64,000 nucleotides of DNA. Origin: Methylophilaceae bacterium (GTDB lineage: Bacteria > Pseudomonadota > Gammaproteobacteria > Burkholderiales > Methylophilaceae). The stretch is from contig JAFMCB010000004.1 of the NCBI GenBank assembly GCA_017858095.1, positions 1,688 to 65,687 on the forward strand, read 5' to 3'. How positions within the stretch are numbered: position 1 is the first letter of the stretch; the number at the start of each line of letters is the position of its first letter. The notes under the pieces are model-generated. The model had not been told where the DNA came from. It did no database searches and was given only the letters and a program-made list of their open reading frames with translations. Positions 17,931 to 22,915 of the stretch are shown here, in pieces. The position numbers and the translations under genes were made by a program.

Positions 17931-18674
17931 ATGAGACGATTTTACCATTCAACAACGCTGACGTTAAATGAAATAATTAAATTAGATGTGTTTGCCGCAC
18001 GTCATTTGGTACAAGTATTACGCGCCAAGGTAGCGGAAAAAGCTATTTTATTTAACGGTGATGGTTACGATTATGAAGTCCAAATACAGTCAATTATTAA
18101 ACATGATGTCAGCGTTTTGGTATTAGCAAAAAATAAAAATATAAATGAATCGTCTCTTTGTATTCACCTTTACCAAGCCTTATCAACGAACGACAAAATG
18201 GATTGGGTAATACAAAAAGCCGTAGAGCTCGGCGTACAAAAAATCACTCCCGTACTGACACAGCGGAGCCAGGTTAAGTTGAAGCATGAAAAAAAAGATA
18301 AAAAAATTCACCATTGGCAACAAATTGCCATCGCCGCATGTGAGCAATCCGGGCGATCGGTAATTCCTCAAATTTATTCAATCACAACAATTGAGCATTG
18401 TTTACAAGAAATGTCGCCAATAGATAAACATGAGCGCAGGTTTGTACTTAATCCTTATGGTAAACAAGGATTAACATTCGAAGGTGTTAATCAAAACCCC
18501 GGCGAAGTAAAATTATTTATCGGTCCTGAAGGAGGATTTACCGAAGATGAAATAAGCTTCATTCAATCACAAGCATTTGAATCTTTAGTATTAGGTCCGC
18601 GCATTTTAAGAACAGAAACTGCACCGATTGCAGGTGTAGCCATTCTGCAGTATATTTTTGGAGATTTTGTGTAA
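17931..18674 (+). CDS. rsmE: 16S rRNA m3U1498 methyltransferase
   Basis: HLVQVLR, QKAVELG, ACEQSGR, IGPEGG, LGPRILRTETA. Confidence 0.96.
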   Translation: MRRFYHSTTLTLNEIIKLDVFAARHLVQVLRAKVAEKAILFNGDGYDYEVQIQSIIKHDVSVLVLAKNKNINESSLCIHLYQALSTNDKMDWVIQKAVELGVQKITPVLTQRSQVKLKHEKKDKKIHHWQQIAIAACEQSGRSVIPQIYSITTIEHCLQEMSPIDKHERRFVLNPYGKQGLTFEGVNQNPGEVKLFIGPEGGFTEDEISFIQSQAFESLVLGPRILRTETAPIAGVAILQYIFGDFV

Positions 18675-18688
18675 AGTGCAATAATATT

Positions 18689-18710
18689 TGCTATAATTTT
18701 TAAAATTATA
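18689..18710 (+). promoter_or_regulatory. Extended -10 promoter (TGcTATAAT) overlapped by palindrome TATAATTTT-T-AAAATTATA
   Basis: TG-n-TATAAT at 18689-18697; 9-bp inverted repeat at 18692-18710; very AT-rich, so chance is not excluded. Confidence 0.45.
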
Positions 18711-18725
18711 ATTTATTTTTATAAT

Positions 18726-20264
18726 ATGCAAAAAATTATTGCTAAAAATATAAGAAAACTTAGAAATTTGCATAATATGAGCTTAAGTGAACTGGCTCAG
18801 AAAATTGCCATGAGTCCTGGTAACCTGTCAAGGATCGAACGCGGTGAACTTAATATCACCATCAAAATTTTAGAAAAAATAGCGCAAATATTTCAATGCC
18901 AATTTCAAGATCTCTTTCTAAACTCTGAATTCGAGGCGCCCAACAGCTTCGTTGAGCAATTCAGGCGAGCCTCAAAGTACATCAACACTTTTTCTAATAA
19001 AATTTTTGTCATTGCCATTGGGGGAGATGTTTTAAAAGATCATCAATTTGAATCGATAGCCTACGATATTAATCTATTACGCTCGCTCGGCATTCGTATT
19101 ATTCTTGTGCATGGCATTCGCCCACAAATTGATGAACTATTGTTATCCAAAAAGCTTAAAACAGCATTGGTAAAAAATGTTCGTGTTACCGACAGCAATA
19201 CCATGAACCATGTTATTGATGTGACTGGCAGAATTCGAACAAAAATTGAATCGATCTTATCTTCTAGCCTCATTAATTCACCGCTATTTGGAAGTGATAT
19301 CAGACTATCGAGTGGTAATTTTATAACGGCCAGACCTTTGGGTGTTGTCGATGGTGTGGATATGCAATTTACCGGCCAAGTAAGAAAAGTAGACCACGAA
19401 GTGATTCAAGCCCGACTCAATAATGGAGAAGTAGTCCTTATTTCGCCTTTAGGGTTTTCACCCGTGGGTGATGTATTTAATTTATCTTATGAGCAACTGG
19501 CCTCATCGGTAGCAAATGCTGTGAAAGCACATAAATTAATTTTCTTTATAAATTCCGATGGTATTTTAAACTTAAGGGGGGAGCTCATCACTGAAATTAC
19601 CACAGAAAAAGCAGAAAAACTTATTCAAAATATTGAAACACACTCTACGCCAAATCAAGCACCTTTTATTTCTTATAATGATTTTAATATTCTTAAAAGT
19701 AGTCTCAATGCAATAAAAAATAAAATTGAAAAAATTCATCTCATCAACCGCCACACCAATGGCTCAATTATTGAGGAGTTATTTACTGACAAGGGATCTG
19801 GAACCGTTTTAACCGAATACCCCCTCGAGCAAATTAGAAAAGCACGAATGAGTGATATTAATAAAATCTATCAACTAATCGAGCCATTAGGACAAGATGG
19901 CATACTGGTGACTCGCCCGATTGATCAGATTGAAAAAGAGTTAGCTAACTTCTATGTCATGGAGCATGGGCTTGATTTAATTGGTTGTGTTGCGCTCTAC
20001 CACTACAAGGAAATGATTGAGGTAGCTTGTTTTGCCATCGATAGCAATTTTTACAACCAAGGCTATGGTTCAAAACTATTAAAATTTTGTGAGAAAGAAG
20101 CCAAAAAGCAAAATACTAACCACCTTTTTATTTTAACCACACAATCCGAGCATTGGTTTATGGAAAAAGGTTTTAAAGTTGAGAATAAAGACCTTATGCC
20201 AATCAATCGAAAAAAAATCTATCAGATAGAGAGAAACTCAAAATTCTTAACTAAAAACATATAA
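18726..20264 (+). CDS. argA: N-acetylglutamate synthase (AAK+GNAT) with N-terminal XRE-family HTH fusion
   Basis: aa 1-65 IRKLR...MSLSELAQKIAMSPGNLSRIERGELN is an XRE HTH; then FVEQFR..YI, LVHGIRPQID, GVDMQFTGQVRKVD, EELFTDKGSGT and GNAT features LFILTTQSEHWF...RNSK. Confidence 0.93.
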   Translation: MQKIIAKNIRKLRNLHNMSLSELAQKIAMSPGNLSRIERGELNITIKILEKIAQIFQCQFQDLFLNSEFEAPNSFVEQFRRASKYINTFSNKIFVIAIGGDVLKDHQFESIAYDINLLRSLGIRIILVHGIRPQIDELLLSKKLKTALVKNVRVTDSNTMNHVIDVTGRIRTKIESILSSSLINSPLFGSDIRLSSGNFITARPLGVVDGVDMQFTGQVRKVDHEVIQARLNNGEVVLISPLGFSPVGDVFNLSYEQLASSVANAVKAHKLIFFINSDGILNLRGELITEITTEKAEKLIQNIETHSTPNQAPFISYNDFNILKSSLNAIKNKIEKIHLINRHTNGSIIEELFTDKGSGTVLTEYPLEQIRKARMSDINKIYQLIEPLGQDGILVTRPIDQIEKELANFYVMEHGLDLIGCVALYHYKEMIEVACFAIDSNFYNQGYGSKLLKFCEKEAKKQNTNHLFILTTQSEHWFMEKGFKVENKDLMPINRKKIYQIERNSKFLTKNI

Positions 20265-21168: not shown

Positions 21169-21798
21169 GTGAAGTATCGCTACTGGATCTTTGATCTAGA
21201 CAATACACTTCATTTTGCAGACATAAAAATCTTTCCCTTAGTTAATAAGAAAATGGATGCTTATATCCAAAATAAACTTAATATTAGTAAGAAAAAATCA
21301 GCCCTACTTAGGCAATATTATTGGGATGTGTATGGGGCCACTCTTCCTGGTCTTATCAAACACCATCAAATTAACCCTCAGGACTTCCTCAAAATAACAC
21401 ACGATTTAATGTTTAATAATGACACAATTCTATTTCCAAAAAATATTAAACATACGTTAAAAAATATTCCTGTACGTAAATTAGTATTTACTAATGCACC
21501 CAAAGCTTACTCAGAAAAAATTTTAAAGCACATGAAAATTTATCGTCTGTTCAATGGTGTGCACAGTATTGAAGATTCAAATTTTCTAGGGAAACCAAAT
21601 CAACATAGTTTTCATCAGTTATTTAAGGATAATAAATTTAAACGTGGGGTAATGATTGATGATGTAAAAGAAAATTTGATTATGGCGAAGAAAATGGGAC
21701 TGATTACTATTTGGTTTAGCAAAGAGCGCTATAAACCAAACTACGTTGATTATAAAATTTTTAATCTGCAGCAATTAAAACGATTAAGAATTAGCTAA
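21169..21798 (+). CDS. HAD-family pyrimidine 5'-nucleotidase-like hydrolase
   Basis: FDLDNTL, YGATLPGL, FTNAP, GKP, MIDD; GTG start directly after argB. Confidence 0.88.
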   Translation: MKYRYWIFDLDNTLHFADIKIFPLVNKKMDAYIQNKLNISKKKSALLRQYYWDVYGATLPGLIKHHQINPQDFLKITHDLMFNNDTILFPKNIKHTLKNIPVRKLVFTNAPKAYSEKILKHMKIYRLFNGVHSIEDSNFLGKPNQHSFHQLFKDNKFKRGVMIDDVKENLIMAKKMGLITIWFSKERYKPNYVDYKIFNLQQLKRLRIS

Positions 21799-22915
21799 GT
21801 TTTTGGAAAATCTCAAACCTTTTTTTCTGAATCTCCTGCCCTAGCTCTCGACCCTTAAACATTGGATCAATTTTGAATTTGGTCATAGATAGGTCATTTT
21901 CAAATACTTTTAATTTCTCCATAAATGCATCCAGATCATGACTTTTTTTCTTAATATTTAGCAAATACTTTGTCAATAAGAGGCTTGAAAATAAAAGTTC
22001 AGGGCGTCTAAAAAAATCTACCTTAAGTATAAAATCAAATTGAGTTTTTTTATCGGCTTTATCAATATCAATTAACTGCAAAAAATGTTGTGAAACCAAA
22101 TTGATCAGATGTTGACTTCGTGCTGGTAATTTTAATTTCTTCGCGTTGACAATCGCCCCTTTTTCTATTTCGTTATCCCCCAAATATAATATAAGAAGTA
22201 ACAAAATAATTTGATCATCAGTATTCAGCTCAGATGCTTGTGAACTTGTAAAAAATAAATTTGCAGCGCCTTGAATTTCGGAAAAATGGGAGTTGGGAAG
22301 TATGATTTCCAGAGCGCCACAATTATCTAGCACCTCAAGCATCATTATAATATTTTTATCAGAAAAGCTTTTTCTTATTTCATCGAGAACTCGTTCTGCT
22401 GACAATGCTTGTATTTCTTTATTTTTAACAATTTTTTTTAATAACTGGAATGTTTTTTCATGAATTGCAAAATCTGGAAATCGAGCTTTAAATCTTGCTA
22501 CTCGAATCACTCTTAATGGATCTTCAGCAAAGGCATCGCTGATATGGCGAATAATTTTATTATCGATATCCTCTATACCTTTAAAAGGATCAATGAATTG
22601 TCCTGAGTCATCCATGGCAATCGCATTCATTGTAATATCACGCCGCTTTAAATCTTCCTCGAGCGTTACGTCTGGCGAGGCATAAAATTCAAAGCCATGA
22701 TAGCCTTTTGATATTTTCTTTTCTGTCCGTGCTAATGCATATTCCTCATGACTATCCGGATGCAAAAAAACTGGGAAATCTCTGCCTATGGGTTTAAAGC
22801 CAAGTTTAATCATTTCATCTGGTGAGGATCCTACCACAACATAATCAAAGTCATTGGTTCTAATGCCCATGATTTGATCACGGACTGCTCCACCTACAAG
22901 ATATTTCTTAATCAT
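21791..22915 (-). CDS. cca: CCA tRNA nucleotidyltransferase (no HD domain)
   Basis: LVGGAVRD, DFDY, EYALARTE, EDLKRRDITMNA, EDPLRVIR. Confidence 0.93.
   Translation of the reverse strand: MIKKYLVGGAVRDQIMGIRTNDFDYVVVGSSPDEMIKLGFKPIGRDFPVFLHPDSHEEYALARTEKKISKGYHGFEFYASPDVTLEEDLKRRDITMNAIAMDDSGQFIDPFKGIEDIDNKIIRHISDAFAEDPLRVIRVARFKARFPDFAIHEKTFQLLKKIVKNKEIQALSAERVLDEIRKSFSDKNIIMMLEVLDNCGALEIILPNSHFSEIQGAANLFFTSSQASELNTDDQIILLLLILYLGDNEIEKGAIVNAKKLKLPARSQHLINLVSQHFLQLIDIDKADKKTQFDFILKVDFFRRPELLFSSLLLTKYLLNIKKKSHDLDAFMEKLKVFENDLSMTKFKIDPMFKGRELGQEIQKKRFEIFQKLS

What the first reader, a model, noticed from the sequence alone, without database searches (positions are those of the whole stretch)
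18726..20264. XRE helix-turn-helix fused to N-acetylglutamate synthase: candidate arginine-sensing enzyme-repressor
Seen: a single 512-aa ORF in which about 65 aa of intact XRE/HTH_3 (LRNLHNMSLSELAQKIAMSPGNLSRIERGELN) joins a full ArgA through a ~10-aa linker (NSEFEAPNS) that contains no Met. Known: classical proteobacterial ArgA is AAK+GNAT only, is hexameric, and binds its inhibitor arginine in the AAK domain. The corresponding elements appear kept here (N-helix Tyr in ASKYI, AHKL Lys, EELFTDKGSGT). Enzyme-regulator fusions such as NadR, BirA and PutA are precedents, and betaproteobacteria generally lack E. coli-type ArgR. Inference: arginine-driven movement of the AAK N-helix could switch DNA binding, so a streamlined genome would get an arginine regulator from the enzyme itself. 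I do not know of a description of this architecture but cannot search for one.
Basis: partly seen in the sequence, partly recalled or inferred. Interest (0 to 1): 0.8.

Follow-up and report, generated by a model that had tools for sequence, protein, structure and literature searches.

The report
Arginine enzyme doubling as self-repressor
Across a family of methanol-eating bacteria, the first enzyme of arginine synthesis carries a conserved DNA-binding domain and its gene sits behind a conserved pair of palindromes, so the enzyme likely switches off its own gene, possibly when arginine is plentiful, and in larger genomes it may also control a methionine gene.

Summary
The fusion is real: one 512-aa frame, XRE helix-turn-helix + classical ArgA, with catalytic and arginine-site residues intact. 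It is not a streamlining invention. It was fused in all 104 family loci translated, including 2.5-3.7 Mb genomes, was not seen in 294 listed ArgA matches outside the family, and forms one clade. The HTH is under purifying selection (dN/dS 0.08; recognition helix 0.02). The gene's promoter carries a conserved palindrome (WTGYA-W5-TRCAW) in 95 of 100 loci, usually paired at 29-31, 41-42 or 50-53 bp (whole helical turns), and in 0 of 25 unfused argA promoters. Boxes are missing from argC, argD-F-G, argH (1/29), argJ and carA, so this is no ArgR replacement. It most likely represses argA-argB (80%); arginine as co-repressor is inferred only (45%). New here: the same box recurs, often paired in phase, at the start of metW in larger genomes (20 of 49 loci vs 0 of 145 control gene starts), a candidate second target. 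This scan noted the fusion and promoter palindromes before in another genome. Ten paper searches found no description.

The parts
17931..18674 (+). rsmE (16S rRNA m3U1498 methyltransferase), upstream neighbour; its last codons overlap operator box 1
   Evidence: NCBIfam NF008692 over cut-off; overlap
18667..18681 (.). Operator box 1, 15-bp palindrome core (consensus WTGYA-W5-TRCAW), over the predicted -35 region
   Evidence: PWM score 15.5; one of only two sites >=12 in the 64-kb window; conserved across the family
18689..18697 (+). Candidate extended -10 promoter element between the two boxes (inferred from consensus only)
   Evidence: Seen in the sequence and at the same place in relatives; the promoter scan did not list it
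18717..18731 (.). Operator box 2, 50 bp from box 1, overlapping the start codon and codon 2 of the fusion gene
   Evidence: PWM score 15.0; the same overlap with Met-Gln starts in most of the genus
18726..20264 (+). HTH-argA fusion gene, 512 aa
18750..18914 (+). XRE/HTH_3 domain, residues 9-63; recognition helix at residues 30-40
   Evidence: Pfam PF01381; five helices in the model, pLDDT 81-91; dN/dS 0.076, recognition helix 0.019
18918..18947 (+). Flexible linker, residues 65-74 (6-46 aa across the family)
   Evidence: pLDDT <50 at residues 68-72; lengths; dN/dS 0.26
18948..19817 (+). N-helix + amino-acid-kinase-like domain, residues 75-364, with the arginine site (Tyr85, Lys270, Glu351-Thr360)
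   Evidence: Alignment to PDB 2r8v; K270, E351, T354, G357, G359 invariant in 39 of 39 representatives
19827..20255 (+). GNAT catalytic domain, residues 368-510 (Arg397, Glu432, G446-x-G448, Thr472, Arg503, Ser505)
   Evidence: residue roles from PMC4490483
20296..21168 (+). argB (acetylglutamate kinase), 31 bp downstream, predicted to be co-transcribed and so co-repressed
   Evidence: TIGR00761 over cut-off; adjacent in 60 of 67 loci where argB was found downstream
21169..21798 (+). HAD-family pyrimidine 5'-nucleotidase-like gene abutting argB, probable third gene of the operon
   Evidence: TIGR01993 143 bits, cut-off 142.9

Best explanation
This is a classical N-acetylglutamate synthase fused to a conserved XRE helix-turn-helix; it likely binds the paired palindromes over its own promoter and represses the argA-argB operon, and arginine bound in the kinase-like domain would likely act as co-repressor. 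Shown: the fusion, its conservation, the paired in-phase boxes, and their absence from other arg genes. Inferred, step by step: (1) the enzyme still acetylates glutamate (about 90%); (2) the kinase-like domains form the usual hexamer, whose interlaced N-helices would bring the HTHs together in pairs, one pair per palindrome; (3) one oligomer would bind both boxes on one face of the DNA, covering the -35 region and the transcription or translation start (steps 2-3, autorepression, about 80%); (4) arginine would stabilise or reshape the ring and so raise two-box binding, through avidity rather than a rigid lever (about 55% if step 3 holds). Every genome checked also has ArgJ, so ArgA would be the top-up entry point and the natural gene to throttle. 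In larger-genome relatives the same protein probably also binds the start of metW (about 55%); this genome lacks a strong site there.
For: Fusion intact in 104 of 104 family loci translated and one clade on an enzyme-only tree (20 of 20 fused tips, support 1.0). HTH dN/dS 0.076, recognition helix 0.019, GNAT 0.074, linker 0.26 (20 disjoint pairs). Box >=12 bits in 95 of 100 promoters; two boxes >=9 in 74, spaced 29-31 (45), 41-42 (7) or 50-53 bp (22) and never in between. A matrix trained on one half of the genera found pairs in the other half that at most 5 of 100 dinucleotide shuffles matched, in 20 of 20 and 29 of 29 loci. Unfused argA upstream regions: 0 of 25 above 3 bits. In a 2.8-Mb genome the only 2 exact matches to the strict pattern are the two argA boxes. 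In the own genome this is the only HTH_3 match, and the two LysR matches are OxyR-like and CysB. Catalytic and arginine residues are kept. For known NAGS, arginine contracts the hexamer by about 20 A and widens it by about 10 A, and stabilises the E. coli hexamer (PMC4490483). argJ in 30 of 30 genomes.
Against: No binding, enzyme or expression experiment. The box-HTH link is co-occurrence within one clade, so it rests on a single evolutionary event. The unfused controls are richer in G+C (41-72%), which lowers scores by itself. The linker varies from 6 to 46 aa, which would damp a 10-A ring change. In this genome's subclade the N-helix Pro is Lys/Arg (23 of 100 loci) and the Tyr is Phe in 11 of 100; arginine sensitivity may differ there (role of the Pro kink recalled, not tested). 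26 of 100 promoters lack a second strong box. The box has T-N11-A symmetry, which LysR regulators also use (recalled).
Confidence: 0.45

Rival explanations
1. Plain dosage autoregulation: the HTH binds the two boxes and represses argA-argB according to protein level only; arginine inhibits the enzyme but does not change DNA binding.
For: The long, variable linker (6-46 aa, dN/dS 0.26) would decouple the HTH from ring movements. The P. aeruginosa enzyme stays hexameric with or without arginine (PMC4490483). The regulon is nearly one operon.
Against: Strict helical phasing of the two boxes suggests binding that depends on oligomer geometry. A free repressor would do dosage control without a fusion kept family-wide.
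Confidence: 0.24
2. The signal is not arginine but a ligand of the catalytic domain (acetyl-CoA, CoA, glutamate or N-acetylglutamate), so the protein would ration acyl-CoA between the first steps of arginine and methionine synthesis.
For: The box recurs at the start of metW. MetW is reported to be needed for MetX activity (cited in PMC13683966). CoA and N-acetylglutamate also inhibit E. coli NAGS, and N-acetylglutamate stabilises its hexamer.
Against: The GNAT domains lie at the far end of the chain from the HTH, which is attached next to the arginine site. The one MetX tested is succinyl-type, not acetyl-type. The metW site is absent in the small-genome genera.
Confidence: 0.12
3. The boxes belong to another regulator (for example a LysR-type protein), and the fused HTH has a different target or a structural or non-specific DNA-tethering role.
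For: The core fits T-N11-A and in-phase double sites are typical of LysR tetramers (recalled). No direct link between HTH and box was measured.
Against: The own genome shows only OxyR-like and CysB LysR proteins (89% complete). Box and recognition helix are both conserved family-wide. The box is missing from unfused argA promoters.
Confidence: 0.16
4. One reading: a streamlined genome recruited the enzyme as a pathway-wide arginine regulator in place of ArgR.
For: ArgR not found in 6 of 6 family genomes searched, in line with PMC5343134.
Against: Fusion present in 2.5-3.7 Mb genomes and ancestral to the small ones. Sites >=12 bits within 400 bp upstream: argJ 0/30, argC 0/29, argH 1/29, carA 0/30; none in 20 argD-operon upstream regions or 29 argF-argG loci.
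Confidence: 0.03

Closest known systems
Classical bacterial N-acetylglutamate synthase ArgA (N. gonorrhoeae NAGS, PDB 2r8v/3d2p; TIGR01890, PRK05279)
   Same: AAK + GNAT over residues 67-510 (E 3e-76); top two fold matches, TM-score up to 0.84 by target length; arginine loop, K201/E270 equivalents and catalytic E353/R316/R425/S427 equivalents kept.
   Different: An extra N-terminal XRE domain and linker. The 2015 family review lists AAK+NAT, short, ArgH-fused, ArgO and C-type NAGS and contains neither 'DNA-binding' nor 'transcription'. Ser392 is Thr here.
Trigger enzymes with a fused DNA-binding domain: BirA, NadR, PutA, archaeal RbkR
   Same: Intact enzyme plus DNA-binding domain; palindromic, often tandem operators; autoregulation seen for RbkR in 36 genomes (PMC5397151 passages).
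   Different: Different enzyme and pathway; none listed for arginine. Here the predicted regulon is tiny, and neither activity has been measured.
BzdR (XRE HTH + shikimate-kinase-like sensor, betaproteobacteria)
   Same: N-terminal HTH-XRE, linker, enzyme-derived C-terminal part; several operators on one promoter (PMC3602430 passages); best XRE-type NCBIfam hit of the HTH (NF006015).
   Different: 34 bits against a cut-off of 204, so not a member. BzdR's kinase domain is proposed to have lost catalysis, whereas here the catalytic residues are kept; this resembles the bifunctional intermediate that the paper built artificially.
ArgR/AhrC arginine repressor
   Same: Predicted hexamer, arginine as predicted co-repressor, tandem AT-rich palindromes (ArgR features recalled).
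   Different: No PF01316 domain. The ArgR core regulon covers argABCEFGH and carAB (PMC5343134); here only argA-argB carries boxes.

Membership tests
Classical ArgA/NAGS | AAK + GNAT architecture scoring over curated cut-offs | tested here: met
Classical ArgA/NAGS | Glutamate/acetyl-CoA site and catalytic base conserved | tested here: met
   E432, G446, G448, R503 in 39/39; R397 38/39; S505 36/39; general-acid position Thr in 39/39
Classical ArgA/NAGS | Arginine-site motif E-(L/I)-(F/M)-(T/S)-x-x-G-x-G-T plus key Lys | tested here: met
   K270, E351, T354, G357, G359 in 39/39; motif
Classical ArgA/NAGS | Hexamer, NAGS activity and arginine inhibition | not testable with these tools
   A 6 x 512 assembly exceeds the complex tool's size; needs biochemistry
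XRE/HTH_3 DNA-binding domain | Profile match and five-helix fold with a conserved recognition helix | tested here: met
Trigger enzyme (enzyme + DNA-binding domain) | Conserved operator at a pathway gene | tested here: met
   assignment of the operator to this HTH is inferred
Trigger enzyme (enzyme + DNA-binding domain) | Measured sequence-specific binding switched by the enzyme's ligand | not testable with these tools
   Needs EMSA or a reporter with and without ligand
ArgR/AhrC regulon | ArgR domain | tested here: not met
ArgR/AhrC regulon | Operators at most arg genes and carAB | tested here: not met
BzdR subfamily | NF006015 over cut-off; shikimate-kinase-like domain | tested here: not met
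   34 vs 204 bits

The most novel reading that the evidence does not exclude
An active hexameric biosynthetic enzyme uses its ring as a DNA-wrapping scaffold: HTH pairs read operators set 3, 4 or 5 helical turns apart, and the feedback inhibitor that shuts the active sites also clamps the ring on DNA. It represses its own operon and, through sites written inside the metW coding sequence, the activator of the first step of methionine synthesis. That would be a one-protein link between the entry steps of two amino-acid pathways in a whole bacterial family.
Probability: 0.25. Interest if true: 0.85.

Novelty: new variant of a known kind. Interest (0 to 1): 0.62.

Why it matters
How bacteria without ArgR control arginine genes is poorly known, and the known enzyme-regulator fusions in the papers read cover biotin, NAD, proline and riboflavin, not arginine. 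This is a natural XRE-enzyme fusion that appears to keep catalysis, the intermediate that the BzdR study had to build. It comes with a predicted operator, so the test is cheap: one protein, one 70-bp probe, plus or minus arginine. [quoted passage not shown] The databases seen here name it simply amino-acid N-acetyltransferase, or name a fragment HTH protein.

Tried and rejected
Complex prediction of two HTH copies gave no answer (0.24 against a mark of 0.42). A second box pair in the own genome, 30 bp apart inside an MFS transporter gene, is not kept in 5 of 5 relatives and was rejected as chance. Other single high-scoring sites in the own genome lie mostly inside genes and were not followed. 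Six extra strict matches in one relative hit unrelated genes. Of 60 relaxed matches in five genomes, most of those examined fell in unrelated genes, except the metW hits (part of the output was cut). The matches were not examined one by one. The origin of the HTH is unresolved: a short Cro-like protein shares the recognition helix and a CI-like S24 protein scores weakly, while the profile search returned mainly multi-HTH proteins and fragments of the fusion. Read laying: two DNA runs gave no useful cover, and no raw reads were available, so expression and start site were not measured. The promoter scan found no more sites than shuffles. The conserved Asp-Phe-Ala site in metW is not significant per genome under an AT-rich synonymous null (p 0.04-0.29), so the metW claim rests on the control genes, the second box in the variable extension and the spacing. 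Dropped rows: L005, L238 and L255 from conservation counts (contig edge, odd long frame, masked bases); L367 from the metW counts; L226 and L229 from the tree; L295 and L333 from the gene-start control.

Full report
Observation. Window 18726-20264 (+) is one 512-codon frame. It carries HTH_3 at residues 9-63, AA_kinase and GNAT and passes both ArgA equivalog cut-offs. The 10-residue linker has no in-frame start. The model shows a five-helix HTH, a disordered linker and the two enzyme domains, and its best fold matches are N. gonorrhoeae NAGS. The protein's 90% cluster has 139 members. One contig from an independent run crosses the linker without gap or stop. The genome is 1.15 Mb and 36% G+C, is found mostly in marine and estuarine runs, and the named close homologues are labelled Methylophilaceae. 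An OM43-type organism is my inference.

Distribution. 292 of 301 family genomes matched. The 150 best matches listed all run from query residue 20 or earlier to near the end without a stop. I re-searched 80 of about 140 unlisted genomes. About three dozen of these aligned only from residue 33-74; I translated 23 of them and all had the HTH in frame behind a longer linker. In all, 104 of 104 loci translated are fused. Two genomes show a break inside the kinase-like domain, none between HTH and enzyme. Outside the family, none of 145 listed order-level matches (43 not listed) and none of 149 listed class-level matches (338 not listed) covered the HTH. On a tree of the enzyme part alone, 20 fused sequences form one clade against 23 unfused ones (support 1.0), with the small-genome lineages nested on long branches. 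Streamlining in this family came after a large-genome ancestor (PMC6794327, passages). The fusion is therefore one old event that streamlining kept, not one that it made.

Selection and residues. In 20 disjoint pairs dN/dS is 0.076 for the HTH, 0.019 for its recognition helix, 0.043 for AAK, 0.074 for GNAT and 0.26 for the linker. The linker is 6-46 residues long. The residues that the NAGS review names for catalysis and arginine binding (PMC4490483, parts 1-4 of 6 read) are kept. E432, R503, K270, E351, T354, G357 and G359 occur in 39 of 39 representatives, and R397 in 38. Against a simple picture: the N-helix Pro is Lys/Arg in 23 of 100 loci, including this one, and the Tyr is Phe in 11. In E. 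coli a Y19C change makes ArgA feedback-resistant (PMC4358701, passages); its correspondence to Tyr85 is recalled.

Operator. The promoters show a palindrome WTGYA-W5-TRCAW. It scores 12 bits or more in 95 of 100 promoters. In 74 there are two boxes of 9 bits or more, spaced 29-31 bp (45), 41-42 bp (7) or 50-53 bp (22), about 3, 4 or 5 helical turns. These are a handful of lineage-level changes, not 74 independent events. A matrix trained on the small-genome genera found pairs in the other genera that at most 5 of 100 shuffles matched in 20 of 20 loci, and the reverse held in 29 of 29 (the seed matrix came from both sets). Upstream of 25 unfused argA genes nothing exceeded 3 bits, though these are richer in G+C. 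In the window the only two sites of 12 bits or more are 18667-18681 and 18717-18731. The first overlaps the end of rsmE and the predicted -35 region, and the second overlaps the start codon. A consensus-like extended -10 lies between them. This is repressor geometry. In the own genome it is the only promoter-located pair, the fused HTH is the only HTH_3 match, and the two LysR proteins are OxyR-like and CysB.

Regulon. argB follows within 250 bp in 60 of 67 loci where it was found downstream (many loci had short flanks). Sites of 12 bits or more within 400 bp upstream: argJ 0 of 30, argC 0 of 29, argH 1 of 29, carA 0 of 30. There were none in 20 stretches covering the argD-argF-argG promoter or in 29 argF-argG loci. 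argC and argJ often sit behind other genes, so their true promoters may lie beyond the 1.5 kb seen. ArgR was not found in 6 of 6 genomes, as expected for this class (PMC5343134, passages). ArgJ is present in 30 of 30, so ArgA would only top up the acetyl cycle (established pathway logic).

A second target. Relaxed scans kept hitting the start of metW. A site of 12 bits or more lies within 70 bp before to 45 bp after the start of the MetW domain in 11 of 25 family genomes, against 0 of 145 starts of five control genes in largely the same genomes. In a fresh set it was 9 of 24, and in 3 outgroup genomes 0. One site falls on the conserved Asp-Phe-Ala codons and can be explained partly by coding and AT bias. 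The other lies in the variable N-terminal extension, 30, 39, 42 or 51 bp upstream, which echoes the argA spacings. There the encoded residues vary as Val/Ala and Thr/Ala, as the Y and R of the DNA motif predict. The small-genome genera, including this genome (best 8.1 bits), lack it. MetW is reported to be needed for MetX activity (cited in PMC13683966, passages; the original was not read). The one MetX tested is succinyl-type. I put this target at about 55%; it would act as a roadblock or repress an internal promoter.

Mechanism. Classical NAGS is a hexamer built through interlaced N-helices. Arginine moves these helices, contracts the ring by about 20 A and widens it by about 10 A, and stabilises the E. 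coli hexamer. HTHs attached to the N-helices would sit in pairs at the two-fold axes, each pair suited to one palindrome, and in-phase boxes suggest that one ring holds both. I infer autorepression of argA-argB (80%) with arginine as co-repressor acting through avidity (45% overall). Dosage-only control (24%), another ligand (12%), another regulator (16%) and a pathway-wide ArgR substitute (3%) are the rivals. None of the binding steps was measured.

Known and new. It is a member of classical ArgA by every sequence test run, it works like a trigger enzyme (BirA, NadR, PutA, RbkR; PMC5397151, passages), and it resembles the XRE-enzyme intermediate built for BzdR (PMC3602430, passages). It is not ArgR or BzdR. 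Ten full-text searches (listings and abstract starts seen) showed no description of the fusion. The library lacks most subscription papers, and no supplements were read, so a mention in a genome paper or regulon database cannot be excluded. An earlier unchecked note of this scan reported the same fusion and promoter palindromes in another genome. I had found the boxes before reading it, and it is not counted as support. Verdict: real, conserved, probably an undescribed enzyme-autorepressor; new variant of a known kind; interest 0.62.

Noticed in passing
L343-L371 and L399-L422, start of metW (own genome G000:C30:83771-84334, outside the window): The argA-type palindrome recurs, often as an in-phase pair, inside the first codons of metW in larger-genome relatives; candidate second target.
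   Followed up: yes
L313-L342, about 50-110 bp upstream of carA: In most loci a G+C hairpin followed by a T run sits just after a -10-like element in the carA leader; it looks like an attenuator and is unrelated to the argA box.
   Followed up: no
window 18717-18731: Box 2 is written across the start codon and codon 2, which would explain why most proteins of this genus begin Met-Gln. No Shine-Dalgarno sequence is apparent before the gene.
   Followed up: partly
family-wide, linker at window 18918-18947: Short linkers (6-16 aa) go with the wider box spacings (41-53 bp) and long linkers (18-46 aa) with 29-31 bp, bar one locus at 53 bp; confounded with lineage.
   Followed up: partly
P0127: A 114-aa Cro-like protein shares the recognition helix of the fused HTH, hinting at a prophage-repressor origin.
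   Followed up: partly
L135-L163: In almost all of the 29 loci argC lies directly behind a pair of genes that look like rplM-rpsI (names recalled from their N-termini), so it may be expressed with ribosomal protein genes.
   Followed up: no
L165-L184 (own genome C32:46652-47167): A conserved membrane-protein gene of about 165 aa sits just upstream of argD in many family genomes, on the same strand.
   Followed up: no
L056:1501-1517: One perfect box in one relative lies between a dps-like gene and trxB; not seen elsewhere.
   Followed up: no
window 21791-22915 and 21169-21798: The HAD gene overlaps the 3' end of a convergent gene that looks like a tRNA nucleotidyltransferase by 8 bp. A gene that looks like slmA follows the HAD gene in larger relatives and is missing here (names recalled).
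   Followed up: no
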